From Octopus vulgaris (lineage: Eukaryota), in assembly GCA_951406725.2 (NCBI GenBank), contig OX597817.1:65534001-65598000 (forward strand): 64,000 nucleotides of DNA, in the 5' to 3' direction. The notes below the pieces were generated by a model. The model saw nothing but the letters and a program-made list of their open reading frames with translations, had not been told where the DNA came from and searched no databases. How positions within the stretch are numbered: position 1 is the first letter of the stretch; each line of letters opens with the position of its first letter. Shown here piece after piece: positions 3,502 to 60,149 of the stretch. A program made the translations under genes and the position numbers.

Positions 3502-4235
3502 TTTAAACCTCTACTCGTGTCGATCAAGGTATTTCAGAATCTTCCGTGAGGAGTTCTTGCTTTATTTTGGCCAAGTGAAAGACCACATCTTCAAGTGAAA
3601 TATAAATACTTCGTAAAGTCTATCCGAGATGTGAATACTCATAGCCATTCTCATTTCCTTCTCGTTTGGTACTTAGTTTGGATATGTATTATATATATCA
3701 TATATTATATAAGTATTTTATTAGAACTTTGTTTTTCTTGGAAATGGATGTGACTTTCATTTCAGTCAGCTCAGCGACTTGTTCCCACTCGCAGGTCATT
3801 GTTTCTCCTTCATAAGAAGTAGGTTCTTCCTTGGAAGAGAGTATTACTTTGCAAGTATTCTCAATCTCGAATTTTTAAAAACTTTTTTTGGCTTTTCCGG
3901 TGGGTTTCTGTTGTTCGTTCTTTTAAAGCCTGCTTCACCCCATCCACCCCTGTTTTGTTGTCACCTTCATACATGAATAGGCTTTTGCTGCAGTGAGGTG
4001 TTTGCACTAGTTATTGTGGTGTTTGCCTCTATTTGCCTTGGCTTTTTTGTTGCTGGGAGAGATAGTGGGGTTAGTTACGTGACTTGGTGTTTGGATTGAG
4101 AACGAAGCAATTTCATTTTCCGACTCACGAGTTCTATATGGTGTCACTATTTTCATATACCGTTGCTTTTGTTCGTTCGGGCTTTCTGTGCAGAAAGTTG
4201 TTAGATGGGTTAGAATAAGGGCCAGCGCCTCATTT

Positions 4236-4658
4236 CTTTCTTATTTCTTTACTGCCCACAAGGGGCTAAACACAGAGGGGACAAACAAGGACAGACAAAC
4301 GGATTAAGTCGATTATATCGACCCCAGTGCGTAACTGGTACTTATTTAATCGACCCCGAAAGGATGAAAGGCAAAGTCGACCTCGGCGGGATTCGAACTC
4401 AGAACGTAGCGGCAATCGGAATACCTATTTCTTTATTACCCACAAGGGGCTAAGCACAGAGGGGACAAACAAGGACAGACATAGGTATTAAGTCGAATAC
4501 ATCGACCCCAGTGCGTAATTGGTACTTAATTTATCGACCCCGAAAGGATGAAAGGCTAAGTCGACCTCGGCGGAATTTGAACTCACAACGTAACGGCAGA
4601 CGAAATACCGCTAAGCATTTCGCCCGGCGTGCTAACGTTTCTGCCAGCTCGCCGCCTT
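4236..4658 (-). mobile_element. tRNA-derived SINE family B with tandemly duplicated 3' body
   Basis: Minus strand ggcggcgagctggcagaaacgttagc...gagttcaaattccgccgaggtcgac. Segments 4236-4415 and 4425-4600 are direct repeats. Confidence 0.9.
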
Positions 4659-4669
4659 ATCTTTCTATC

Positions 4670-5990
4670 GAGCCCTAACAACTCAGCAGCATAATCTAGG
4701 ATTTCTTGAAACCTTACCTCAGTTGCCACTGTCACAATATCTTTTGAACGTGTTATAGACTTCCTTCTGGCAGAAAACCCGAAAACTCACGAATACAGTC
4801 AGGTCATACATCTAAACATCAGTCATAGTCGGAGATTTCATTTAATTCTATGACTCGGCTATGTTATCCTTTGCAAAGTTCCTATCTTTGGATGTATTCC
4901 CACCAAGTACATTTAGAGCCGTTTCAAACTTCTCAGATAATTCACTATCACACAGTAGCCGTTTGGTTGGAATAAAGAAGCAGTGTTCTTGGCGATATAT
5001 TCCCGTTCTCACATTATTGGAAAGATCATTCAAATTCACTGGATAATTTGGTGCGCTGACTAAGCGCAATGTTTTGTTGCAGTATTACGCCTGGCACTAG
5101 GGCGGCGAGCTGGCATAGTCGTTAAGCAAACCGGGCAAAATGCTCGTTCTGAGTTCAAATTCCGCCAAGATCGACTTTGCTTTCATTCTTTCGAGGTCGA
5201 TAATTATATTGTACCTTTATGCATCAGGGAAACAAAATTTTGTAAACCAGTTTGAAAAATGCTCAAAGTCATCCACACCATATTTAAACGTCAAATCTCA
5301 TGTAAATTAAATTCCGTGTGACCATTGAAAGCACTTTGGAAGTGATATACAAGCAAGTGTTATTTTTATATCAGCTCCAGCATTTCATCCATAATAACAT
5401 TAAACGCTTTTTGCGAGCTTGAAGCCTGTTGCTTGTTTTCTCATAAGAAATAAAAGACCTAGTTGGCATGAGCTTCTAGGAAAGCCCAAATCTCATCTAC
5501 ATTGTACTGGTGGTTTTCGTGTACAATACTTCTTTCAGAATAATTTCTTCCGGCACTTCAAGATAGTTATGTGCAGCTTCTCTATTAGAACAGGCAGATT
5601 CAAAGGTCATTTTAATACTAAGGCGCCTCTTAACTTATTAATCTGAAATTTAGCCCCCCCGCAAAAAAAGGTGGGGCGTAAAAGGCGAGGAAATAGCTTT
5701 TCATTAGAGGTTGCACCTTCCACTTGCTGCAAATAGTCACACTTTCCCTTGAATGACAAACGTGTTTATCGGTGTATTATGCCAAGTATGATTTCCTTTT
5801 ATGCACTCAGGAGACCTTCCATTCTACCATCGTTTCAAATCAATACAAATACAATATCCGAGTACTTTAACAGAGTATTTCGAGTATTTTCTTCGGGGCT
5901 TTGTAGACTCTATTGTCATGTTTTGCCCATCACTCTAGAGATTTCAAGATTTATACGATCTTTACAATATATCCGACATGCTTTCTGAGA
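4670..5990 (-). pseudogene. Decayed Tigger/pogo (CENP-B-like DDE) transposase
   Basis: Frameshifted minus-strand translation: ESACSNREAA..NVDEIGLS*KLMPTRSFIS..GFK..KKRLMLL..WMTLSIF..NWFTKFCFP..SAPNYPVNLNDLSNNV..NTASLFQP. Matches the Tigger motifs NxDETGLFWK, DNAPGHP and NTTSLIQP. Interrupted by a SINE B fragment at 5100-5200. Confidence 0.85.
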
Positions 5991-6163
5991 AGTTTTTACG
6001 CATCAATCTTTTGTGAAAAAAAAAAGGAAAGAAAAAAAGCATGCTTTCAATACAACATAATCCTTTTAAAATGATTTTTGCAAGTTGTGTTCACTTTCGC
6101 CCTACGGCCTCTCTCTAGTTATCTTAAATATGATACCTTAAGCATCACTAGTCAAATCCAACG

Positions 6164-6197
<34 letters not shown>

Positions 6198-6343
6198 ACG
6201 CAGACACAAATACACATTTATATATGCATGTGTATATATTTGTATGGTTTGGTATACGTACACACATACATACATGTCTATATACGTGTAAGTGTATGTA
6301 TGTATGTATGTATATATATAATATATATATATGTATATATGTA

Positions 6344-6402
<59 letters not shown>

Positions 6403-6964
6403 TATATATATACCCATACATACACTGCATATATCTGTGTAAATGTGTGTGCTTCATGTCTGACGTATCATTATATCTTGATGCTGATAGATCATAACTA
6501 CTTATCAAACATTATTACCATAGCAAAAATATATTTCACTACCTTCGATACACATTCTACCAAAAGAGCGCGAAGGAATCTTTAAGAAACATGTATCTAT
6601 ACGATAGAGAGCTATACGAGCAAGAATTTTGAGCTTCATAAATTAATATATTATTTTGATTAACCTAGTAAATTGAAAAAAGTTCAAACGTACATGCTTA
6701 TTTTAAATGGAGGCGTATGCCTCCAGTCGCATCAGGTTGTGTACATAACTTTATACACATATGATTAATACAGAAGTAAACACACACACGTGTGCGTGGT
6801 GTGTGTGTGTGTTTATGTGAGTATGTATATATGTATTTCTAATTATATTACGAAATATGTATGAATAAGGTATGTATATATATATAAAGAGAAAGAGTGA
6901 GAGGGAGAGATTGATAGATATATAGATAGATAAAGCATGCATACGTATATGCATATTACGCATG

Positions 6965-7014
<50 letters not shown>

Positions 7015-7380
7015 TGTATGTGTGTGCGTGCGTTTGTGCATATGTGTGTATAAACTAAAAAAAATATACATAAATACAGATGTATGTAATATATATTTAT
7101 TGTGGGGTGACATCCCTCTTCCCTCAAATCATTATCACTTTCCGAACCGGATGAAAGGACACCTTAATTGATCACAGGCAAACAATGAAAAATATTTCTG
7201 CGGCTGCCATCTTAAAACCGATTGAGGTAGGATATGCTTATATTGAATACAGGGAGGAAAGAATCCGCTACGAGGCTGAGAGCTATTTTAAATTGCATAA
7301 ATGTGTCTACAAAAATACTGGTTTAAAACTAATTAAGGGGAAACTAATTAGTGTAATAATGGAACTTAAATAAACAAGAC

Positions 7381-7469
<89 letters not shown>

Positions 7470-7475
<6 letters not shown>

Positions 7476-7729
7476 AAAATCTGAAGTATAAACTAGAATG
7501 TAATTACATTATAGAGAAAATATTTAAATTAGGAAAGATAAACTAAAAGGTAAAAGAAATAACAAAATACAAAATCACAATGACTCTCAAAAAAGTACTA
7601 TAAAAAGAATAGAGGAAAACCCACTCTAGGCCCAATAACCTGCAAGACCCGACTGACCGACAGTGTGTCTGAGTTAAAACCTGTAGGCACTAAACTAAAA
7701 GAAGAAACGGAAAGTCTACTTGTATCTGC

Positions 7730-7807
<78 letters not shown>

Positions 7808-7935
7808 CCACAAAACAGTGTGAAAACAAAATATTATAACAAGAGACTCAGATCAAGACTATGCAATCAGAACAATGAGAGTACTGATCACATCATTTCT
7901 GGTTGCTTAGTCTCAGCAAAATCAAAGTTTATTAA
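7470..7935 (+). pseudogene. R4/Dong-clade (restriction-like endonuclease) LINE C-terminal remnant
   Basis: [13 protein letters not shown], then a (TA)n insertion, then [24 protein letters not shown] (CCHC zinc knuckle, [13 protein letters not shown] type). Confidence 0.75.
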
Positions 7936-7994
7936 TATTTTTACGCTTTCTTGGTTTTGAGTGAAGAGCGGATTAATCACACTACGTGGCACTA

Positions 7995-9900
7995 ATTTTT
8001 CAACAAACGCTACTTCATGTGGTATTAATTAATTTTAGGGTGCTCATTATGAATATGAAATCTGTTTTGCTCCATCACATCTGCATTTTGATCTACAAGA
8101 TGTCCCACATCTAATATGTTTACGGATATGCCTAATTTTGTGAACATTGCATGTAATTTATTTTGTGTACTAAGCTACAATCAATCACTGTTAAAATAAC
8201 AGTATACACTTATGTATAGTATTGATTTTACTGACAAGATCAGTAGCATGGATTTCAAGAGTGAAACCAGCAAAAGTCTGCCATCAAGCGAAGATCGGTT
8301 AACCCTTGGTACCTTATTTCAATAGAAGAGATCACTTGATGGAATATTTTACCATGCTCATCATTCACTTGGCCTAAGTCCAAAGAAAAAAATCCAAGTG
8401 ACTCTAAAGAAAACAAATCTTTTGAGAACATTTTGACATTCTGAGCATCGAATGAATCTAGGAGGTCAGCTATGCTTGCCTTGTAATCCGGGATCGGTTC
8501 TTTCCGAGAAAGTTTTCAACTGTCTTTAATACAGCATCCTAAGCCTGTCGTTCAACTTCATTTATTGAATCTCTGAACATCTGTTTCTTTATTAATTTGC
8601 ATGTGTTTGGTACAACGATCACATCTTCTTTAACCTTTGCTTTACTTAATCGAGGAAGGATATCTTTCAACAACTTGAGGTCCAGTGTCTTCAAGGTTTA
8701 GTGTCTTCAAAAAATTTTTAAGATTCCAAGTTTAATAAATAGCGGTGGTAACACAATTAGCTCAGGTGAAGCTAGTGGTATGTATTGAACGCTTTCATTC
8801 CATAGACTCCATTCATAACATGCCGACTCTCTGGCTGTTCCATAGGCACAAGAAACAGCAACACTTCGTGTAGCCCGTTTGCAATCCAGTTAAAAAAATA
8901 TGACCTTCAAGTCACCTCCAGTTTCCCACTTCAAATCATCATACCTGATCAAGGAAAGTAACATCTTAATACTGTTGTAGGACACCTTCCTCAAATAACG
9001 CACTGGAATCCCTAGGTACTGATTCCCAACAAGCAAAAAGATTGCCTTTCAGTTGGAAACACTGCCATCAATGAATAATTACCAATCTGTCTTGACATCA
9101 GAGAAAATTTCCAGTACTATCTTCAAATCAGTAATGTTCTTGCACAAACATTAAAATCAAACCAAGTTCATTATGTGTGTGGAAAAAATTCAAGAAATTC
9201 CTTTTCTCGGTGTCTGAACGCTGTTCTTTTGGTGCCTTGGGCTAAAACACCAAATTCCCCGAGCATTGTTCTAGCTAGAAAAGCACCGTCTTTGAAAAGT
9301 TCCAACTTTCGAGGAAAATGACCATGTAGTTCTTAGCTTATTTTAGGGCATAATTGAGGAATTTCAAAATCCTCGTCATACATTGGTCTTCTCGGCCAGT
9401 TTGGTCATCAGAATCATCATCTGACTCATTCAATGTTTTATTGCTTGGCACAGTAAGAATTTCGTCTTCGTATGGTTGTGGTATTATGGCAGGCGGCAAA
9501 TTAGTATGCGTGATATACTTAACGGTTTTCTTACTGAACCCATCAACATTAATTATGCAAAAGTTGGAATCAGTAGAATGGTTGTTTGATTTTCACTATG
9601 CCATTGGAGCAGGAAATGTCATTTGGACCACAAGCTTTTGCATACAATTTGTAGTGTAAAGCATTTATATTGATGTCCAAATTTCATTTTGAAGTAATCC
9701 TTGTCTTGCTTGTATGAGTAGCGTAATGTTTCTCCTATAGTTCTTGAATGCATATTCCTCACAGATGTTGCAAAAATTATCTGGATCATTGCAATATACA
9801 CGCCTTGAAGCTATACAAATTGAAGCAAATTTAAGTAGAGAAATGAAAAAATAGCAGTTCACAGTGGACAAAGCAATTACCAATTTGATACAAGTTACAA
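7995..9900 (-). mobile_element. Decayed Chapaev3-like (CMC) DNA transposon with transposase pseudogene (~9830-8225)
   Basis: N-terminal CNDPDNFCNICEEY. C-terminal SHLDFFSLDLGQVNDEHGKIFHQVISSIEIRYQG..LMADFCW, matching the family motif SDEHGERFHQDI..EKRYQG..MADYCW. Many stops and frameshifts. Superfamily name recalled, not searched. Confidence 0.75.
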
Positions 9901-9949
9901 TAACATTCGAAACACGCATCAAATTGGCCTTAAGAGTCGGGTAAAAGAG

Positions 9950-10165
9950 TTTTCCACTTCAAATCATCATACCTGATCAAGGAAAGTAGCATCTTGATAC
10001 TGTCATATGACTCTTTTGCTTTCCTCGAATAATGCATTGGAATCCCTGGGTACTCATTCCCAACGTGCAAAAGGAGTGCCATTCAGCTGGAAACACTGCC
10101 ATTAATGAATAACCATTAATCTATCTTGACATCAGTGGAAATACCCAGTACCATCTTCAAACAAG
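9950..10165 (-). repeat. Diverged second copy of an internal transposase segment (8922-9135)
   Basis: cacttcaaatcatcatacctgatcaaggaaagta...tcttgacatcag...cagtac..tcttcaa occurs at both places as a direct repeat. Confidence 0.9.
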
Positions 10166-10339
10166 TAATGCGGCCTATGCGCTGGTCTGAATTAATTTCC
10201 CGTACTATACTTGTGGCTTCTTTATTGATATGATTTATGCGGTTTGATTGATGTTGATATATACATGCTTGGCGAGCACGTAATTGTCTAATTCATGTAG
10301 GCTTTTCTTTTTATCAAATCAGATAATGTAACAGTGCAT

Positions 10340-10580
10340 AATACTCTACTTTTGATCTAACCAGCAGCATACAATAATAAGGACATCCTAATATCAGATT
10401 TTTTCATTTTTACATCACACAAACGGAATTTCAATGATACTGAAATCAATGTCACACCACACATAGCATGATTAACATAGTCGATCCACAACATTTCTGC
10501 CTGCTGTCCACCATCTACCTCTGCTAATATTTCAGCATGGGCTTGCCCAAACATAAGTTGAAAATAGCTACAAATAAACA
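10340..10580 (-). pseudogene. Probable RTE-clade LINE 3' remnant
   Basis: AEILAEVDGGQQAEMLWIDYV resembles the RTE C-terminal IL.G.V.G.R..GR....W.D motif. Confidence 0.4.
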
Positions 10581-10792
10581 AGATTCAGTTAAAACTACCA
10601 TTCAAAAGTACATATTCACTCGAATCATTCTACTTGAAGAATGCTTTATTTAGCATGAAGAAAAGTTAATCGAAATCTAGTAATAATTTTATCTAATATT
10701 CTGTTGTCTCTTGGGAGAATCATTTTCTTTTTGTGCCTTAAAATGTAACACACTCACCGGTAAAATTTCCACTTATTTCTTATTTTTATTTT

Positions 10793-10831
10793 CCTAAAAT
10801 TTTCGTTGCATCTTGCAACCTTTTCAATAGA
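10793..10831 (-). ncRNA. Minimal hammerhead ribozyme, U3-A8 core variant (within a ~10695-10845 element)
   Basis: Minus strand: tcta TTGAAAA G GTTGC aagat GCAAC GAA AATT T tagg. Confidence 0.65.
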
Positions 10832-11177
10832 CTTGACTCTGTCCGTTATTTACACTGCTTTCCTTTTTAATACCTTTATTTCAAAACAACGTTATGAGTA
10901 TTGCCTTTTTTTCTTGCAAGACTTCTTCAAAACTATTGACATTTTATCAACTTATGACTTGACCGAATCATTAGAGCGTCGGACAAATTTGCTTGCTGTA
11001 TTTGTTCCATCTTTTTAGGTTCTACTGGAGTTAACGTTGCTTTTCACTACCCCTATACACACACGCATAATTATATACATTTTTACTTGTTTCATTCATC
11101 GAACTGCAGCCATGCTGGGACCTCTTTCTCTCCCTTTCTCTCTCCCCCCTCTCTCTATATATACATTATATATACAT

Positions 11178-11220
<43 letters not shown>

Positions 11221-11509
11221 CTATCTATCTGTCTTTATCTTTGAAACCCATTTTCACTGATTGAAACTGGTGTTGGTTCATTTAAGTCCAAGCATATGTT
11301 TAGATATGTGCGCGCTCACACACACACACACACACAAACACACACATACACAAAAGTTATGCAAATTGCATTACTTTCTGACTCTCCATCGTATGTTGTG
11401 TGTGTGAATGTGTGTGCGTGCGTATGTGTGCGCGCGTGTGACTGTATGTGTGTGCGTGTGCGCACATATATAAAAGTATTCTTATTTCCTTTACATGTAT
11501 CCTTCATTT

Positions 11510-11689
11510 AACTGCGCCCATGCTGGAGCACCGCTTTTAGTCGAACAAATCGACCCCACGATTTATTCTTTGTAAGCCTAATACTATTCTATCGGTTCTC
11601 CTTTTGCCGAACCGCTACTTTAAGGGGACGTAAACACACCAACATCAGTTGTCAAGCGATGATGGGAGGACAAATATAGACACACAGAC

Positions 11690-11754
<65 letters not shown>

Positions 11755-11910
11755 ATGGGCTTCTTTCAGTTTCCGTCTACCAAATCCACTCACAAGGATT
11801 TGGTTGGCCTAAGGCTAGAAGACGCTTGCCCAGGGTGCCACGCAGTGGGACTGAACTCTAAACCATGTGGTTAAGAACCAAGCTTCTTACCACACAACCA
11901 CGCCTGCTCC
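11510..11910 (-). mobile_element. SINE family A, near full length
   Basis: Reverse-complement match to 2734-3125, including the internal (TA)n. Confidence 0.9.
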
Positions 11911-12127
11911 TATGTATGTTTATATACACACACACACATATATAATTGTATTGTATACTTATATGTATGCGTATATATATATATGTGTGTGTGTGCGTGT
12001 GTGCATGTGTGTGAGTGTGTGTGCATGTGTGTGAGTGTGTGTGTGCATGTGTGTGAGTGTGTGTGAATGTATGTATATATACATACATATATATATATTC
12101 ATACTAACATGTAAGTATACATACATT

Positions 12128-12206
<79 letters not shown>

Positions 12207-12599
12207 CAATATATATATACATGTATATATATATATATATATACATGTATATATATATATATGCGTACATAGACTCAAACACTCATACACCCACATACAT
12301 ATCATTCGCGAAATTGCATAACTCTTTGGTGCTGTTATGTTACCTATTTCTTTCGCGCGTGTCAAATTTCATACTGCTTTGACAAAAAAAAAAAAAGAAA
12401 GATAAAAGTCATTTACTAAAGGTAGATAACTGTAGAAAGTTACCTACCTTAAAACAAGCGCTCACACACCCACATATTCATTTACATATTACCATACGCG
12501 TATCACATACACCTAGCAACTTTTTGAATCTCTTTCTCACAATCTCATTCGCATCGTAACTTTCACCTTCTTCGTTATACTAATTTCTTTTATGAATCA

Positions 12600-13385
12600 G
12601 CGAGGATGTCCTTATGCGAAAGCCTGACCAGCTAAAAATAGCAGCAAAATATAACTGAATTACTCTTATATTATATACATCATATCAGTAAAAATAAAAG
12701 CAGAAAGACGGAGCGGGATATTCCTTACTGCTCATCATAAGTCTGATTAATTATGGTTGAACTAGAGCTAACAAAAACACTAAGAAGGAGAATCACTATA
12801 CAAAGAGTTTGCGTGATTCACAGAACCTGGAAACCTCTGTACAGATCAACCGACCTTCTAGAAATACAACCAAATTATCCTTATATCGTGCACTATCGTC
12901 TCAAAGGAAAGGCGTACATATTGGACAGCGTAGTCCAAAATACAAAAAATGACACAATGGTCACGGTTGGATTATAGGTTTCCTTAATTGTGATTGCTCT
13001 GGGCTTATCAGTTACTGTTATACGGAATAAAGAAACGGTAAAACGTACAAAATTCCTTGGAAGAATCACAGTTGCCTCATTTGGATAACAGAAACAAACA
13101 ACAATTATAATGTACAAACAATATATTAGATCCGCCATGGACTATGCTAACAAAGTAAAGGTACCCACCACTAATCTGTCTTCAAGGAACTGCACGTGCT
13201 AACACTGCACCTATACATAGTTGCTTACTTACGAGAAATAGCAGCTTATTCTCCTTCGGATCCCATTATAGCATCTTAAAAAAATGACTTATTTTAGGAC
13301 AATGTAGTTTTGGGTTCTTTGCACATTGGAATGGTCACGGCTGAACTACCTTTGATCCTACCTTTACTCGATAAGGATTTACACA
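12600..13385 (+). repeat. Three degenerate copies of an old ~200-bp interspersed repeat (family E)
   Basis: Recurrent motif gacc(t)gct.gaaatagcagc.aa...tggtcacggct(g)ga. Also seen at ~16730-16950(-), 22120-22310(-), 29820-30045, 30160-30355, 31620-31820(-), 37740-38030, 46880-47030(-) and 58950-59110. Confidence 0.6.
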
Positions 13386-13649
13386 AAGACACACAGTATA
13401 CAAAGCGACTAACTTTACATCACGTGTTACAAACAGATTTGATATATTGTCCTGATATACAGCAAAAATAACGAAAGACTTAAAATGAAACAGTACATTA
13501 TCATGCAAGGGTACTACTTGTTGTCTCAGCAATCTCCAACCTTCACAATCCCTGACATTTCTTGCACGATCACCTCCAAAAGAAAGAAACGCATGTACAG
13601 CACCTCGGGACATATTACAAGAGTAAATATGTTTCCCATTCAGCCCAGA

Positions 13650-16400
<2,751 letters not shown>

Positions 16401-19029: not shown

Positions 19030-19839
19030 GAATTATGTTTACCCAGAAATGTTAATACGAACGGAATAAAACAAGTTTCAAGTAAATCGGACAAGTAATT
19101 ATTAGAGGTTTTCAGATATAAATACCCGAAACGGTTCATATTGGGAAAATATTTTGAAAATAATCTTAATCCTGAAAGGGATGAAACTCTTATCTTTCGA
19201 TTAGACACAGTAACTTGACAACGAAAAAATCACGAGTTTTTTCAGTAAATGTTTCTATTTTTGCGTTTGTTAAACACGATATTTTAATCATTTAGAAATA
19301 TTTTTAAGTGAATGTGATTTCAAAAATGTAAATTGTTTGTACAGTAAGTATTTATATTTTAGCTTTCTTTAAACAGACAATATCTTAATGTTTTTTAAAA
19401 ATTATTTTCGTGTGAATACCATTACAAAATGTTTTTTGGTGAATTTTTAAAATGTTTCAAAGTGAAAATGACTTTAAAAATATAGTAAAAATTTTGTAAA
19501 AGACCCATTCTAACCTCGGTGTGAAATAGTTTTTTTCCATACGAGTGCATTCAACGTATATCACCTCCGAAGATTTAGCTGTTATTTCTAGCACACACAG
19601 CTACCACGTAACAGCTATTTGCGATAAAGGACCCGAAATAGATGTTACGTGGTAGCAGGGTGTGCAAGAAATAACAGCCAAATCTTTCTTGTTCAGGGGA
19701 AAGGGGCCGTTTACGCTTGATTTCGATGACAGATTCGTTGAAAGCATGCGAAATAACCCCACGAAACAAAACTCCGTTGCTAAGAAACTCAGAGTTTGCC
19801 GGTGACCCAACGGGTCACGGGTAGTCTAGTCTAGTCTAG
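19030..19839 (+). mobile_element. Non-autonomous Helitron 3' portion
   Basis: Hairpin gtgaccc-aac-gggtcac (19802-19818) followed by CTAG-T three times (19826-19840). 5' boundary uncertain. Confidence 0.7.
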
Positions 19840-24530: not shown

Positions 24531-24841
24531 ATAATAGTTATCGCCATACTAATATGGCATTCTTATAAAAATAAGAATAAAGCTGTCCGCTTATTAGTTC
24601 CATGAGGCCATCGCCTTAAGTTAGCTATTTGATACACAAACTGTATCCCTTGTTCGAAGGTTATATGGATACAGTTTGTGTATCAAATAGCTAACTTAAG
24701 GCGATGGCCTCATGGAGCTAATAAGCGGACAGCTTTATTCTTATTTTTATAAGAATGCCATATTAGTATGGCGATAACTATTATTTTCCGGGAACGCTGC
24801 CGCTGTTCTCTTTTAGAGAGACTTAGTAATTTTAATATTTC
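24531..24841. mobile_element. Fold-back element in (TA)n: 118-bp arms (24531-24648 / 24667-24784), 18-nt loop, ~55-bp unpaired extension
   Basis: Arms are reverse complements with one mismatch seen (gttcc vs gctcc). (TA)n on both sides. Confidence 0.9.
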
Positions 24842-35995: not shown

Positions 35996-36256
35996 GATAA
36001 TTTCAAATAACACAAATTAATTCCTTAAGTTAATTTACTTTCTTAGGGAAAAGACAGTCTGACAGTTATTTGCTGGTAGGAGACAACATTTACTGTTGTA
36101 CAATACACGATAGGCATTGAGGACAAATTTGCAGACTTATACAGTTACACAATTTGTTTGAATGCTTAGTTTTTGAAGTTGTAAGGTTTACCTTATTGTT
36201 AATAATATAAAATTAAGCAGCAAAATCAATTTTACAAGAAAAACTAATATTAATAC

Positions 36257-36613
36257 TACGGAGATGTACTCGCATAGCAAGTAATTTGATCTGAGATCGT
36301 GTGCTGAAACGAAAACAATTGCAGCGTGGGAGGTGTTTATAAGCCATTTAAGAAACACACAAAAGCCGTTCGATTCACTCCAACATTTAAGTTTAATTTG
36401 TCAAAATATTTTCGTCGCTAAAATCCGCGACCTGTTCACTGACAAAGTCCGTGCTGCATCACGGAGATGCAGCACGGACTTTGTCAGTGAACAGGTCGCG
36501 GATTTTAGCGACGAAAATATTTTTGACAAATTAAACTTAAATGTTGGAGTGAATCGAACGGCTTTTGTGTGTTTCTTAAATGGCTTATAAACACCTCCCA
36601 CGCTGCAATTGTT
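36257..36613. mobile_element. Snap-back retro-element with 147-bp arms, 5-nt loop, TSD and two hammerhead-like motifs
   Basis: Arms 36314-36460 / 36466-36613 are identical apart from a 1-nt indel. Flanked by the direct repeat aatattaatac (36246-36256, 36614-36624). Confidence 0.9.
36397..36446 (-). ncRNA. Minimal hammerhead ribozyme, G3-C8 core variant (mirror copy on + at 36480-36530)
   Basis: tttgtca GTGAACA G GTCGC ggatttta GCGAC GAA AATATT T tgacaaa: 7-bp stem I, 5-bp stem II, palindromic stem III. Confidence 0.7.
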
Positions 36614-39600
36614 AATATTAATACAAATTCTGAAAATTATTTATGTAATTATAGTAACTAGGAGAACGTTTTTCGAAATACTAATACGTTCATGAATATT
36701 AAAAAAGAATTTAATCACATTATTTTCCTTTTCCTTTTTCTTTCTTAATGCATATGCCGTAACTGTCTCTTATAAAACAAATTTTATCTTGAAGCCACTT
36801 CGTTTCATTGCCTCGTTGTAAAATTTGTAATGATTTTAGACGGATGTTCATAGTATGAAATGGTAGAAAGGCGGCGACTAATATTTTCGGATAAATTCTT
36901 TTCAGAATTTAGTGGGTGGTTTATATTAAGATGTAATACTTCTGTAGGTTCCAATAAGTGTGACTATTCCAAGCTACCAGGTTTAAAATTATGTCAAGAA
37001 AAAACGTTTGCTATGGTCATCTTTAATCTTTTTAATTTAGTTAAAACAATGATTTTTTTTCATCTATGGATTCATGCTCATTCAAATTCCATGAAATTAA
37101 CAGACAAAAATCTCTGCACAAACCTCCATGTAAACATTGGCTCAAGTATAAATAAATTTCAGATATAAGCCTTATTAAACCAGAAATGTTAGCTAAACCC
37201 AAGTTAGCACCGGTGCTACTAGCATTTTACTTTACTCATGGGTCATTGTCAAAGGATAACATAGGTTGTCTTATCTGCGTAATAATACTGACGTCAGTGT
37301 CACAAGTAGTTGTAAACAACTTAGCGTAATCTATTGCTTATTGAAGTAAATTTTTAATGACACAAGGGGAATTGTTAATAATGTCAAACTCCGTGAAATT
37401 ATGGATATGTATTGCGGATTCTATTAAAACAATTTTTTCTTTGTTCATTGATATATGAATTCATCAATGCCTTAATTACTTGCTTTACTGTTCATTACCT
37501 GTTTCACAGTGTTACTTCAGTAATTAATGTTAATTAGCAGCAACTTTGAAATTATATTCTCATTAGGAATCAACCTAAATTAACACAGCCGTTATTAATA
37601 TGTATTACCACTTGTGAACATAGCATATTTTCATTTTAACTTGCGTTGTCAATGTAGATTAACCAAACTCAATACATGTCAATACAAACTTAACATAGTC
37701 ACACCGGGGTATCCGTTAATAACTAATGTTGTAACACAGACGATCAACCAACAATAGACTCGTTACATAGTAACTTGATCTGTGAAAGATAGCAGCCAAA
37801 TTAGCTTTGAATTATTCCTATAAATTATTCACAAACAGCCTTGAAAAAGATATTTAAAACTACATTGCATAGTCTTTAGATACTTGACATCTGAAGAAAA
37901 AAAAAAGATAAACGCAAAGTCATATGATGATGATGATGATTATGATAAAGACAACAGTGAAAAAATAGCTTAAACAATTCTATATCGATATCACATGGTC
38001 AATGCTCGAAGATTGTTTGTCTGAGTTAACAGGTGCTGAACCTCATTACGTTGATGTTTAACTAATGATAATTAGTATTCAGCAATGAAAGCAACATTGA
38101 CTGGTACAGATAAGTGATTCTCATGACTTCATACTGTAAACCTATAGTTAACTAATCAAAACTAAACGTGTACCAATACTTATTTGCATCACATTATAAT
38201 TAACCAATTTAACTGGTTTGTCTCAGTTAATCACCGCGTAGATGTATTCTGAATAGATGGTACATGTATTGAACATTACTGATTATTGTTGGTGAGGAAT
38301 ATAGTCGATTACCTGAGTTCCAGATATATTACCGGTACTTTATTTCCGTTTCAAAACATACATAGCCGATACAAAATGTTCAACAGGGTTTAATTGGAGA
38401 GTGAGAAGAGTACAATATGGCCAGACTGTAGCACTGCGTAGGATACAAGTTACTCCGGCATATCATAACGTACGCTGCTGTTCTCAACTAATCAGAGGGA
38501 CGGATCTGTGGATTGCATCTAATCTTAAGACCGACTTCATATTTGCCATCTTTCTTTGATTCCTTGCCCGGTCAGATCAACGAATATCCCTGGGTGATTT
38601 TTCTGAGAAGCAATATGTACTTTTCATAGAATTATCAAGAGAAAATACAAAGGCGGTGCCTTGTCTTCTGTCGGGTATTTTTTTTCACATGACACTAGTT
38701 AGTCAGCTAAGTGCAGATAAGTTAACAACTGGTTGATAACTCAAGATTTAAAAGATCAGAACAAATACTGCAAATCATTTTGTTCTACTCCCAAACGATT
38801 GTTAGTTCACCGCCTAAAGCTCTACCTATCTATTATGGAATCAGGAGGTGAGAATAACTTGGCACATCTATGTGGATGTTTGACCTTCTAGGAAAAGTAA
38901 CTAGATCTTTCCCAGATTACTGCATGACTTCTGTCGTCTTTGAAATGCTGAGAGATTTGATCATGAAGTACTAAATACACAGTTCTCACGGAAAACCCTG
39001 CATGATCAAAAGTGAACCGCTTTTGAAGCAAGATTTGCGTAGCCATTTTTAAAGTTTCAGTTCTATAAAATCGAACCACTGACCATGCGGCTGTTAGAAA
39101 CAACGCATCAACTCAAATGTTCTCCGATCATGATCAGTCCATCGTTTAGGGGTATATAGGACTACATTATATCATGTACTCCTCCCATTTTTTAAGTCTG
39201 TAGGTTATGATTTAAAAGAGATGTATATGTTTAGGAGGTTAAGCGTTCGCTGAATGTCTTGTTTAAATGCATTGTGTTAGAGATTTGGGCAACAAAGTAT
39301 CAATTCCTATCATTATCAATCAATCTAAATATTTTCAAACTAAATCATTACACCAATTAATTAAAACTGCCTGTTTGAATTAGGATGTTAATTAAAACGG
39401 CTTAATTCGACGAATCTTTGTTCTTTATAAATCAAAGCTACTTTAAAGAATATGTTTAGGCTTTTACTATTCTACTATATTGGAAATACTTTACCTAAAA
39501 AACGTTAAAAAAGAAGCAGTCGTAATTATACTCCAAGTCTGTTAGATTCCACAATCAATACAATATGAAATATAAAAGGTTTATCGGAATGCTTCCTTGC

Positions 39601-42086: not shown

Positions 42087-42716
42087 ATAGTCAGTGGGTA
42101 CTTGAAATGCTGTCATTAATTTCGGTGTTTTAAAAAATATTCTGTTTTTTTACAATTTCACTTAATGTCTATTTAAGCTCATTATAATAGTTAGCAACTT
42201 CTCTAACAGCTTCAGCACAAATGCCAATTATTTTATTTTTAGCTTTTTGTTCTGGCATAAGTATTAATCTAATGCACCTCTATTATTCTTTCTCCGTATT
42301 TTGTTTTTAAATTTTATATTTCAGCATGATGTACTATGTCGTTTGTTAATTCCTAAATGTGCCTAAGTCGGCCTTCGTTTATTCCTGTTGTTTGTTTATC
42401 TGCTAAGATATATGTACTATTCGGTTGTTCCTTCATTAGATTTGTCATTGGCTCATTATTATTAGGTTCTGCTTTTTGATATTCAGATTGAAGCACGATA
42501 GGATTTCGTAGAGGGATGGAAAATATGCTTTGAAATATTTAATTATGCCTCGTTACATTCTGGATTTCAGTCCGAACTTTCAGCATGTCGAATATACATA
42601 AAATAACAATTTGCTAAATATTGTTTATATTTAGTGTATGTCTAATCGCAAAATGCGTGTCTTCGGATCAGTGTAATAAATAGATAAATAAATAAATAAA
42701 TAAATAAATAGTAGCA

Positions 42717-42936
42717 ATAATGATTTCAAATTTTGGCACAAGGCCATCAGTTCCGAGGGAGGGGATAAGACGATTAGATCGACCCTAGTATGCCACTGGT
42801 ACTTATTTTATAGCCCCCGAAAGAATGAAAGGCAAAGTAGGCCTCGGCGGAATTTGAACTGAGAACATAAAGACGGACGAAATACCGCCAAGCATTTTGC
42901 CATGCGTGCAAACGATTCTGCCAGATTACCGCCTTT
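42717..42936 (-). mobile_element. SINE family B
   Basis: Reverse complement of 43473-43685, including the tail ggccttgtgccaaaatttgaa. Confidence 0.9.
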
Positions 42937-42997
42937 CTAATAATAACAATTATCCTCCTCCTCCCCCTCCTCCTCCTCCTCCTCCTCCTCCTCCTCC

Positions 42998-43685
<688 letters not shown>

Positions 43686-48399: not shown

Positions 48400-48449
<50 letters not shown>

Positions 48450-49135
48450 CGTTCGCCTCAGCTTTTGCTTCTATTCCTTCTATGTTTTTCTATCACAACA
48501 TTTCTGTGATCTTTTCAATGAGTTTAAATTCACCATTTAATTTAAGCTCTTTGAGAAGATCACAGAAAGCTGTGGCACAAAAATATACTGAGGATATAAG
48601 CAAAAACTGTGGAGAATGGTTTGTGATTGTTTATTGACTCTGAATATAATCAGTATTACTCAGCCAAAATATTATAATATCGATTTCATCACTTCGTTTC
48701 ATACGAAAATTCTTGTAAAGAAAAATTGACAAATGATATATATGTGTGTGCGCGCACATATGTGCCTGTTTGTAGATATTTATATCTACATTTCTATATA
48801 TACATATGTATACGTATATATATGTATATATAGAAATGTATGTGTGTGCGTGTGTGTGTGTGTGTACATGCGGTGTATTTGCCAGACTCTTTTTCTTAAG
48901 ATAAGCGGTGTATAAGCGGTCTTTTGCTTAAGATAAGCGGTGTATAAGAAGGCAAAAGTGGACCAGAGAGAAATGTAAGTAAAACTTACAAGTATCTCCG
49001 TTTTGTAAATGCATTTTTAGCATCGCCTTAAAATGATGATAACCGTGGTTAAACCTCACATTTTTAGTTTCTGGAACTAGAAAAATAACAAGCAGAGATG
49101 TTAATAAATACACATTTGTTACTATTTAGACATAT

Positions 49136-53157: not shown

Positions 53158-54857
53158 CATACATACATGCATTCATACATACATACATACATACATACAT
53201 ACATACATACATACATACATACATACATACATACATACATGTTGATACATGTATGGAAAGGTTAAAATAAAGCGCTCATACACTAGGAAAAGACTCCTTA
53301 AAAAGGTTAGTAACATCCTGATAAAAGATTTTATAACATTTGTTTAAAAATATTTTTTTTTAAATCACCTTTACACTTCAAAACTATATTAAGTAATTCT
53401 CATAGATTTTCATATATATATACATGCATACATATATGTTGCTATGTATATGTATATACATGAATACATACAGACAGACAATTTTTAATTGAAGTTGAAA
53501 CTTACACGACTCGATCGCTCCATATTTCGGTTCATCTTATAGTAGTTGAATTAGCAATGAACATACAGATATAAGCATATGATTTAACATAACGTTATAA
53601 TGTCACAGAATATTTTAAAATAAACTTGTAATTTGATTGTTTTGGGTGGGCTTTCTATAGCATTAGTATAGATATAATTAGGTAAAAAATAGCGATTATT
53701 CGAATACGAAATGTAAAATGGGAAATGTAACTCGAAAATTGAAAAATAGAATAATAGGAAGAAGTGACGAAAATAAGAACAGAAAATAAAAAATATGAGT
53801 AAAAAAGATTTAGAGCTATTTTATACTATGCTGATTGAAAAAATCCTATATCTCGTTTATGAAATGCCTATAAAACTATTTTCTTTTCTTCATTTTTCTC
53901 ATTTTCAGGAATTTTTTATCCATTTGTCATTTGCATATATCGTTCATATCGGTTTTTTCAATCAGCATATTATATAACAGTTCTAAATCTCTTTTTCTCT
54001 TCTTTTTGTATTTTCTTTCTTTTCCTCCTCTATTCTTCTCTTTCTCCTTTTCTTTTCTATTTTTCCATATTCCAATTTCACCTCTCATTTTACATTTTAT
54101 ATTCGGAACCGGTATTTTCTACCCAATTACATCAGCGTTAACGCTAAAGCATTCCAACAACCAATCAAATTACGAGTTTTGGCGGACATTAAGAACCGAC
54201 ACGTTGAGAGCGTACTTTTTCTGTTTTTCCTTTTTTATTTAGTTGTGGTTCGAATGAATACTTCCGTTCTGTAAGACTTTCATTATTGCAAACTTTCTTT
54301 ATTATTCATTCAACGTAAACTTCTTAAATTGCTTAATCATGTCTTCGAATTCCATGTTGATAATGAATAATATCCATCATGATAATGTCACTGAATTTCA
54401 ACAGGATCGTAGTGACATTTCTAGAGCCACATATTGCATATGTTCTGAGCTAATGTCAATGCAGAAACAGTGAAATTGTTTTCATTGCGAGTACTTGAAA
54501 TAACAATGACCTCCTGTGCAGTATTCGTAGAAGCAAGTTGCATTAGTACTCAATATTTGGGAGATATCACATTTTAGAAATTACGTCAAATTGATCACTT
54601 ATGGGTGTAAATGAAAAATGACGGTACACTACAGTAAGATGAGTTTTAAATATTCAAATGAAATGTATTAAACAACGAAAGTATCGGATTGCTATTCAGT
54701 TAGGCATGGTCTGGACCAATCTTTGGCCGAAACATATCTAAGTTAGGTAAGTTATAATGAAATCAGGATGTACCTCTGTTCATTCCAAGTATTTCTGACA
54801 ACATCCCAAAAAATCTTTCACTTTCTTCTAATAATTTCTGAAGTTATGGTCGAGGTG

Positions 54858-60103: not shown

Positions 60104-60149
60104 GGCACCTGATGAAGGCAGGAGGGTATATCAGCCGAAACGTTGTGTT
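60104..60149 (+). ncRNA. Minimal hammerhead ribozyme, canonical core (within a ~60052-60237 element following (AAT)n)
   Basis: ggcac CTGATGA A GGCagg agggtata tcaGCC GAA ACGT T gtgtt. Confidence 0.75.

What the first reader, a model, noticed from the sequence alone, without database searches (positions are those of the whole stretch)
36397..36530. G3-C8 hammerhead variant present on both strands
Seen: core GUGAACA replaces CUGANGA, with a perfect 7-bp stem I (tttgtca/tgacaaa), 5-bp stem II (GTCGC/GCGAC), palindromic AATATT stem III and a UUU site. The plus-strand copy has one extra T at the site. Established: G3-C8 rescues activity in engineered HHRs and is rare in natural ones. Inference: a natural swapped-core ribozyme family. 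At this locus the long hairpin would probably sequester it.
Basis: partly seen in the sequence, partly recalled or inferred. Interest (0 to 1): 0.75.

Follow-up and report, generated by a model that had tools for sequence, protein, structure and literature searches.

The report
Swapped-core hammerhead in octopus Penelope retrotransposon
This 356-base head-to-head duplicated fragment, likely the end repeat of an octopus Penelope-type jumping gene, carries a hammerhead-shaped RNA motif whose core C-G pair is reversed to G-C in this copy and in the related copies examined, so it would be a natural example of a swap known from laboratory mutants, if it cuts, which is untested.

Summary
The two motifs are the arms of one head-to-head duplication (36257-36612) inside a 12-bp target-site duplication, with a 57-nt tail on one arm. 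An ATG 56 nt after the predicted cut starts a peptide. It matches an Octopus gene model from the same Met (27/31), which links to proteins with Penelope-type RT motifs. So this is likely a Penelope-like element (PLE) pLTR carrying a minimal, dimer-type hammerhead.

In four runs (3,927-14,431 contigs laid each), no substitution reached 2% over the GUGAACA core. A second subfamily with a different loop II keeps the core. G3-C8 is therefore a family trait, absent from 56 published PLE hammerhead representatives.

Limits: conservation over the flank was not significant (p 0.08-0.22), only 21-37% of neighbouring depth covers the core, and cleavage is untested. The extra T was not seen as a family variant. 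Read-through RNA here would be locked in a hairpin. The scan noted G3-C8 PLE motifs twice before in other genomes (unchecked).

Verdict: new variant of a known kind.

The parts
36245..36256 (.). Left copy of a 12-bp AT-rich target-site duplication (TAATATTAATAC)
   Evidence: (family D7); abuts the family end at 36257 seen
36613..36624 (.). Right copy of the target-site duplication; its first T also completes the right arm
36257..36460 (-). Sense arm: 5'-truncated pLTR of a Penelope-like element, with tail (204 nt)
   Evidence: depth rises from about 50 to above 100,000 at about 36250-36257 in X1 and X5; loose ends at 36257 in 57-79 contigs per run
36257..36313 (-). 57-nt tail present on one arm only; 36313 and 36257 are the two preferred family ends
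   Evidence: table 7 (34-50 and 57-79 contigs per run)
36258..36347 (-). Start of the element ORF, 30 codons open to the element end
   Evidence: 27/31 identical to the first residues of P0001
36397..36446 (-). Type I minimal hammerhead motif, family form. Stem I 36440-46 with 36397-403; core 36433-39 (G3=36439, C8=36434); extra G 36432; stem II 36427-31 with 36414-18; G12-A14 36411-13; palindromic helix III 36405-10; U17 36404; predicted cut between 36404 and 36403
36461..36612 (+). Inverted copy of the pLTR without the tail, head-to-head with the sense arm; 36461-36465 is the unpaired spacer
36480..36530 (+). Second hammerhead motif (G3=36487, C8=36492) with one extra T in the run 36520-36524
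   Evidence: no insertion row at the matching T run table 4

Best explanation
The locus is a 356-bp head-to-head duplication inside a 12-bp target-site duplication, likely the solo pseudo-LTR of an Octopus Penelope-like retrotransposon, whose hammerhead-shaped motif carries G3-C8 instead of C3-G8 and is predicted to cleave slowly after U17 when two motifs pair through their AAUAUU palindromes. Shown: the motif, the insertion anatomy, that G3-C8 is the state of the copies that could be laid, and the protein chain from the ATG to a PLE-type RT. Inferred mechanism: (1) a partial-tandem master element is transcribed through two pLTRs; (2) helix III cannot close in one motif (2-nt loop), so two motifs form a double hammerhead, possibly helped by the element's protein; (3) G3 pairs with C8 and places the residue-8 ribose as C3-G8 does (mechanism recalled, engineered rescue read in PMC11167929); (4) reverse transcription starts at one of two sites, 36313 or 36257, giving the optional tail; (5) fold-back priming gave the inverted copy, and endonuclease nicks in AT-rich DNA gave the duplication. 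This copy itself is probably inert: it has no upstream ORF, read-through RNA folds into one long hairpin, and the + arm has an extra U at the cut site.
For: Anatomy matches PLE descriptions (head-to-head inverted pLTR, tail on one arm, pLTR holding the first codons, TSD 8-10 bp; PMC3846280 passages; PMC8557442 passages). TSD chance about 2e-7, or 2e-4 if all-AT. Protein chain: window peptide to P0001 (O. sinensis model, same Met, E 1.1e-8); P0001 74-223 is 78% identical to P0002 (O. vulgaris); its cluster mate P0003 reads TDKSG, PPLYGLRKDHK, PPTRPVCG, MDVVSLYPSI. The Atlas places P0003 at feature score 0.97, with structure rows in clusters bearing RVT_1, GIY-YIG and HTH_animal. The motif has the min-HHR marks of PMC4209133: extra nucleotide at 9/10.1, G10.1-C11.1, palindromic helix III. 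Family: no substitution row at >=2% in 36427-36446 in any of 4 runs. A loop-II variant subfamily keeps GUGAACA (loose-end consensus, 45-68 contigs per run, agreement 0.72-0.75). The one common stem change, A1.3 to G at 4-11%, keeps a U-G pair. The C3G/G8C double mutant partly rescues a PLE hammerhead and single mutants are dead. Hand estimate: two random changes among 11-13 conserved positions land on 3 and 8 and re-pair about 0.5% of the time (uncorrected for the many families that exist).
Against: No cleavage evidence of any kind. Core-versus-flank conservation is not significant. Depth over the core is only 21-37% of the adjacent bin 36410-19, so most copies diverge or end before the core and were not counted; 890 loose-end rows were not shown, so a C3-G8 subfamily is not excluded. 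The extra nucleotide is G, whereas the published consensus is H (G in 1 of 56 rows). The predicted double-hammerhead is only 0.6 kcal/mol better than two open monomers. In the one PLE reconstituted in vitro, cleavage needed protein, was not needed for insertion, and left no read ends in RNA-seq. The RT link rests on a chain of gene models, not on one contig. P0001 is a chimeric model ending in a methyltransferase domain. Pfam gave no RT hit on P0002 or P0003. The synonymous-change test on the 30 codons was not significant (6 of 11 versus 4.4 expected, p=0.24).
Confidence: 0.6

Rival explanations
1. Same PLE pLTR, but the motif is a catalytically dead or nearly dead relic. The swap was fixed in a master copy and carried along because cleavage is not needed; the hairpins may serve only folding or protein binding.
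For: Cleavage was dispensable for insertion in vitro in PAc. Min-HHRs cleave poorly even as dimers. The core is not significantly more conserved than the flank. There is a non-consensus G at 9/10.1 and a marginal dimer energy.
Against: All other conserved positions are canonical and the two changes restore a Watson-Crick pair. Loop II was replaced between subfamilies while core and stems stayed, and the common stem I change is wobble-compatible.
Confidence: 0.28
2. G3-C8 marks only one or two sublineages; the wider family, including the autonomous element, keeps C3-G8 or U3-A8.
For: Only 21-37% of the adjacent depth reaches the core, and most loose-end rows were not shown. No DNA of a full-length element was seen. 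Canonical and U3-A8 motifs occur in the same window, though they have no BLAST match to this element.
Against: Both loop-II forms that were printed carry GUGAACA, in all four runs.
Confidence: 0.08
3. A fold-back DNA element (MITE) or an assembly artefact that resembles a hammerhead by chance.
For: The palindrome is near-perfect; the extra T lies in a homopolymer and may be a sequencing error; no listed contig spans the whole stretch.
Against: The family has asymmetric ends and an ORF start linked to an RT; a 12-bp TSD; 0 descriptor hits in 100 controls; opposite-strand joints at other places in the family (4 of the 15 rows shown).
Confidence: 0.04

Closest known systems
Minimal type I hammerheads of metazoan Penelope-like elements (min-HHR; Cervera and De la Pena 2014, PMC4209133)
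   Same: Type I topology, extra nucleotide between 9 and 10.1, G10.1-C11.1, palindromic helix III that needs a dimer, location in the pLTR, opposite-strand pairs 100-700 bp apart, mostly solo copies.
   Different: G3-C8 core (0 of the 56 rows of their Fig. S3: 53 C3-G8, 2 U3-A8, 1 U3-G8); extra nucleotide G (1 of 56); stem I 7 bp rather than 2-5.
Drosophila virilis Penelope hammerhead variant (same paper)
   Same: Six-nucleotide palindrome from 15.1 to 16.1 (AUAUAU there, AAUAUU here).
   Different: Canonical C3-G8, bulged helix II and 2-bp helix I there.
Natural U3-A8 hammerheads (Perreault 2011, PMC3088659; Schistosoma Cercyon PLEs)
   Same: Natural covariation of the 3-8 pair.
   Different: U3-A8 is reachable by transitions through a U-G wobble; G3-C8 needs two transversions from C3-G8, and the single C3G and G8C mutants were inactive in PAc.
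PAc (Anolis Poseidon PLE) hammerhead, C3G/G8C double mutant (Frangieh 2024, PMC11167929)
   Same: The same swap in a PLE hammerhead, partly active; ORF starts near the ribozyme; two RT start sites define the tail.
   Different: Engineered, not natural; the PAc ORF starts at stem II, here 56 nt after the predicted cut; tail 30-40 nt there, 57 nt here.
Non-LTR retrozymes (bioRxiv 10.64898/2026.07.22.740005)
   Same: Non-autonomous PLE-derived repeats with type I hammerheads.
   Different: Retrozymes are head-to-tail arrays; this locus is an inverted pair with a TSD. Some family joints may be tandem (kind not printed).

Membership tests
Hammerhead ribozyme | Three-helix junction with stems I and II flanking the core | tested here: met
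   stem pairing probability 0.7-1.0 in the sense arm
Hammerhead ribozyme | Consensus core C3 U4 G5 A6 N7 G8 A9 | tested here: not met
   G3 and C8 instead; U4, G5, A6, A9 canonical
Hammerhead ribozyme | Watson-Crick pair possible between positions 3 and 8 | tested here: met
   G3-C8 in both arms and in the copies laid
Hammerhead ribozyme | G12 A13 A14, A15.1-U16.1, H17 | tested here: met
   minus arm exact; the plus arm has one more U at the site
Hammerhead ribozyme | Match to an Rfam hammerhead model | tested here: not met
Hammerhead ribozyme | Site-specific self-cleavage | not testable with these tools
   needs an in vitro assay or raw RNA reads
PLE minimal hammerhead (min-HHR) | Extra nucleotide at 9/10.1 (consensus H), G10.1-C11.1, palindromic helix III | tested here: met
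   all present, but the extra nucleotide is G, seen in 1 of 56 published rows
PLE minimal hammerhead (min-HHR) | Core under stronger constraint than the flank | tested here: inconclusive
   p=0.22 and p=0.08
Penelope-like element | Head-to-head inverted pLTR with an optional tail on one arm | tested here: met
Penelope-like element | Target-site duplication in AT-rich DNA | tested here: met
   12 bp; empty allele not seen
Penelope-like element | pLTR contains the first codons of the element ORF | tested here: met
Penelope-like element | ORF with a PLE-type RT (GxKF/Y, DKG-like motif, RT1-RT3) | tested here: met
   through the chain P0001-P0002-P0003; motif names partly from PMC8557442 passages, RT1-RT3 wording recalled; Pfam scan itself negative
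Penelope-like element | C-terminal GIY-YIG endonuclease in the same ORF | tested here: inconclusive
   P0003 ends before it; only Atlas neighbour clusters carry PF01541; no longer homolog found
Penelope-like element | Hammerhead and RT ORF contiguous in one full-length copy | not testable with these tools
   no genome held; no RT in 122 window ORFs scanned
Non-LTR retrozyme | Head-to-tail tandem units each with a hammerhead | tested here: not met
   this locus is inverted; tandem forms elsewhere are only hinted (table 5c)

The most novel reading that the evidence does not exclude
An Octopus PLE lineage crossed the inactive valley between C3-G8 and G3-C8 and amplified with an active swapped-core hammerhead. 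With the C3-G8 and U3-A8 motifs in the same window and the scan's unchecked notes from other genomes, PLE hammerheads would sample three Watson-Crick states of the 3-8 pair under selection for cleavage. A whole class would then be invisible to CUGANGA descriptors and Rfam, including in elements now listed as lacking hammerheads.
Probability: 0.4. Interest if true: 0.7.

Novelty: new variant of a known kind. Interest (0 to 1): 0.52.

Why it matters
Whether the hammerheads of animal Penelope-like elements are kept for cleavage is open: they cut poorly in vitro, and cleavage was not needed for insertion in the one reconstituted element. A compensatory G3-C8 swap carried by a high-copy family is the kind of natural covariation that argues for selection on the active fold. 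It also gives a 50-nt construct with a clean four-way test. The published descriptors I read use CUGANGA (or U3-A8), and Rfam missed this motif, so hammerhead counts in genomes may be too low.

Tried and rejected
No whole genome is held, so copies could not be aligned.

Collection scans found no relatives:
- Family pattern: 0 matches in metagenomes.
- 25 GTDB and 4 viral seed matches do not extend beyond 27 nt or form the motif.
- Generic G3-C8 pattern in viral contigs: 119 loci read of about 140; 1 reached stems I and II >=4, weakly.
- Generic pattern in metagenomes: 0 of 115 passed. A repeat family among them (36 loci, 14 distinct) was aligned and rejected: stem II pairs only 2-3 bp, and the repeat ends like a DNA transposon (my recalled reading).

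Proteins:
- Pfam on 122 of 298 window ORFs (low-complexity ones and two others left out): no hit.
- Representatives search with the 30-aa peptide: 0.
- Longer homologs of P0001 1-221: 0 of 951 candidates.
- Atlas on P0001 1-221: nothing usable.
- PDB sequence search on P0002 and P0003: 0.
- P0003 in viral contigs: 0.
- Single-sequence AlphaFold of P0003: pLDDT 33, not used.
- Synonymous-change test: not significant.

Expression: no RNA holder listed. Depth is not a copy number and was not used as one.

Rfam at E<=10 on 36257-36465 and 24650-24800 gave only chance hits.

Literature: searches showed no report of a natural G3-C8 hammerhead. Lunse, Weinberg and Breaker 2017 (PMC5785218), the largest survey of these motifs, is not held and may bear on novelty. 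Supplement file 1 of PMC4209133 could not be searched.

Full report
1. Observation. The window is AT-rich, repeat-dense eukaryotic DNA. Positions 36314-36613 form a palindrome whose 147- and 148-nt arms differ by one T, with the spacer at 36461-36465. Each arm holds a type I hammerhead layout. On the minus strand (36446-36397) it reads: 7-bp stem I; G3 U4 G5 A6 A7 C8 A9; one extra G; 5-bp stem II starting G10.1-C11.1; G12 A13 A14; AAUAUU; U17. The plus copy (36480-36530) has one more U at the site. Stems I and II are the minimum-energy fold (z -3.4; 1 of 200 shuffles). A descriptor allowing any Watson-Crick 3-8 pair found only the minus copy in the window at strict settings, and 0 hits in 100 resampled windows. 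Rfam has no hammerhead match at either threshold.

2. The insertion. A 12-bp AT-rich direct repeat lies at 36245-36256 and 36613-36624, with a chance of about 2e-7, or 2e-4 at worst. It brackets 36257-36612: a 204-nt sense arm on the minus strand and a 152-nt inverted arm, head-to-head. The sense arm has 57 nt that the other lacks. Laying four runs on 36200-36478 (likeness 80, share 2%; X1, X2, X5, X9, labelled organisms A, B, C, D; 4 of the 24 listed) placed 14,431, 3,927, 8,992 and 6,256 contigs. Depth rises by orders of magnitude at about 36250-36257. Loose ends pile up at 36257 (57-79 contigs per run) and 36313 (34-50). These are the two arm ends of this locus. Passages of PMC3846280 and PMC8557442 describe this anatomy for Penelope-like elements: inverted head-to-head pLTR, tail on one end, 8-10 bp TSD, first codons inside the pLTR. 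The main text of PMC11167929 ties the tail to two RT start sites and reports cutting of AT-rich DNA. The tail here (57 nt) is longer than the 30-40 nt they give.

3. Link to a PLE protein. An ATG at 36347 (minus), 56 nt after the predicted cut, opens 30 codons to the element end. A search with it returned one protein, P0001 (Octopus sinensis gene model), which starts at the same Met with 27 of 31 identities. P0001 ends in a methyltransferase domain, so it is probably a chimeric gene model. Its residues 74-223 are 78% identical to P0002 of Octopus vulgaris. P0002's cluster mate P0003 continues through ELPPKF, TDKSG, PPLYGLRKDHK, PPTRPVCG and MDVVSLYPSI. I read these as the GxKF/Y, DKG and RT1-RT3 motifs; the first two names come from PMC8557442 passages, the rest is recalled. 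The ESM Atlas puts P0003 at 0.97 with DUF8422 clusters, and its structure rows include clusters with RVT_1, GIY-YIG and HTH_animal. Against this: the Pfam copy used gave no RT hit, no full-length homolog was found, the window holds no RT in the 122 ORFs scanned, and I never saw hammerhead and RT on one DNA. The host is likely an Octopus species (inference from these records).

4. Is G3-C8 a family trait? In one search, table 3 lists 38 substitutions at 35 places between 36279 and 36426 and none from 36427 to 36446, which covers stem II 5', the extra G, the core and stem I 5'. A loose-end consensus behind 36419 (45-68 contigs per run, agreement 0.72-0.75) shows a second subfamily with a different 9-nt loop II and the same stem II, core and stem I. 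The only common non-CpG change in the stems (A1.3 to G, 4-11%) keeps a U-G pair. Changes at G12 and in stem II 3' are CpG transitions of 0.8-6.4%, which I read as decay after insertion. No insertion row appears at the T run, so the four-T form is the family form and the extra T is private to this arm or an error. Limits: outside CpG, 0 of 18 core-type places vary against 17 of 140 in the 3' flank (p=0.22), and 1 of 42 structured places against 17 of 140 (p=0.08). Depth in bin 36430-39 is 37, 21, 33 and 27% of bin 36410-19, so many copies are clipped at loop II or end before the core. 890 loose-end rows were not shown. Differences close to an alignment end are also under-reported. So G3-C8 is the state of the copies seen, but stronger constraint on the core is not shown statistically.

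5. Mechanism. In one motif, helix III would close a 2-nt loop, which is not possible, so the active fold needs two motifs paired through AAUAUU. This is the dimer model of PMC4209133 (main text parts 1-2 of 4) and of PMC6765202 (passages). The nested double-hammerhead scores -27.2 against -26.6 kcal/mol for two open monomers: allowed, barely favoured. In PAc, C3G and G8C each abolish cleavage, the double mutant partly restores it, cleavage needs the element's protein, and it is not needed for insertion in vitro. That residue 8 acts through its ribose while its base pairs with residue 3 is recalled (Martick and Scott 2006, not read). By hand, two random changes among 11-13 conserved positions would hit 3 and 8 and re-pair about 0.5% of the time, uncorrected for the number of families. 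I put slow, dimer-dependent cleavage in the source elements at about 0.6. At this locus the stems have probability 0.00 in a transcript of the whole insert (-276 kcal/mol hairpin) and 0.7-1.0 in the sense arm alone. Three joints in table 5c (36446 to 36389, 36402 and 36327; depths up to 3,227) are written like the one 'goes back' row and may be head-to-tail hammerhead tandems elsewhere in the genome; their kind was not printed.

6. Comparison with what is known. Fig. S3 of PMC4209133 (supplement file 2, parts 1-2 of 3) lists 56 representatives: by my count 53 C3-G8, 2 U3-A8, 1 U3-G8, 0 G3-C8. The extra nucleotide is G in one. Section 8 and passages of PMC3088659 report natural U3-A8 only in the text; its figures are not held. 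PMC3884650 mentions G3-C8 as an engineered variant (passage). The Craig 2021 methods used a cuganga string (passage), which would miss this motif; its supplement was searched for first places only. Also seen: passages of PMC6155905, PMC8969392 and PMC10226581 (irrelevant), and part 1 of 5 of bioRxiv 10.64898/2026.07.22.740005. Nine searches showed no natural G3-C8 hammerhead. Lunse 2017 is not held and could change that. The scan itself has two unchecked notes of G3-C8 motifs with an extra nucleotide behind Penelope-type RTs in other genomes; I could not test them. Public collections gave no relatives outside the coded runs.

7. Verdict. It works like a PLE minimal hammerhead and sits in a PLE pLTR. 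It fails the literal C3/G8 consensus but keeps the 3-8 pair. It is a new variant of a known kind, with activity untested. Interest 0.52. It is above ordinary because the swap is carried by a high-copy family and is easy to test.

Noticed in passing
window 10793-10831, minus strand: PLE-type minimal hammerhead candidate with a U3-A8 core, an extra G at 9/10.1, 6-bp stem II, AAUU helix III, U17 and 4-bp stem I (z -1.9). Found only at relaxed settings, for which no shuffle control was run.
   Followed up: partly
window 60104-60149, plus strand: Canonical C3-G8 PLE-type minimal hammerhead candidate (extra A, ACGU helix III, U17) just after an (AAT)n/(AAC)n run; stem II looks decayed (z 0.17).
   Followed up: partly
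window 24531-24784: Second near-perfect palindrome (118-nt arms, 99% complementary, 18-nt spacer) beside (TA)n, a similar anatomy; no hammerhead descriptor hit and no Rfam match.
   Followed up: partly
window 36258-36266 and 36461-36469: The 9-mer ACGGAGATG occurs at both the element's far end and the junction, so the two ends of the unit can pair; it may be the microhomology behind the fold-back.
   Followed up: no
window 53622-54179, 19570-19686, 48443-48625, 42716-43682: Further older inverted repeats (69-82% identity); the last encloses a long (ATT)n run.
   Followed up: no
P0001 (Octopus sinensis LOC115227545): The gene model joins about 220 residues of this element's ORF start to a methyltransferase domain; either a mis-annotation or an exonised PLE fragment.
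   Followed up: no
table 5c, joints 36446 to 36389, 36402 and 36327: Possible head-to-tail tandems of the hammerhead unit (about 59 and 127 nt) in several copies; these would allow dimers in one transcript. The kind of joint was not printed.
   Followed up: no
L150, L154, L170 and 33 more metagenome loci: A roughly 700-bp AT-rich repeat family that matches the search pattern but lacks stem II; probably a DNA-transposon end.
   Followed up: partly
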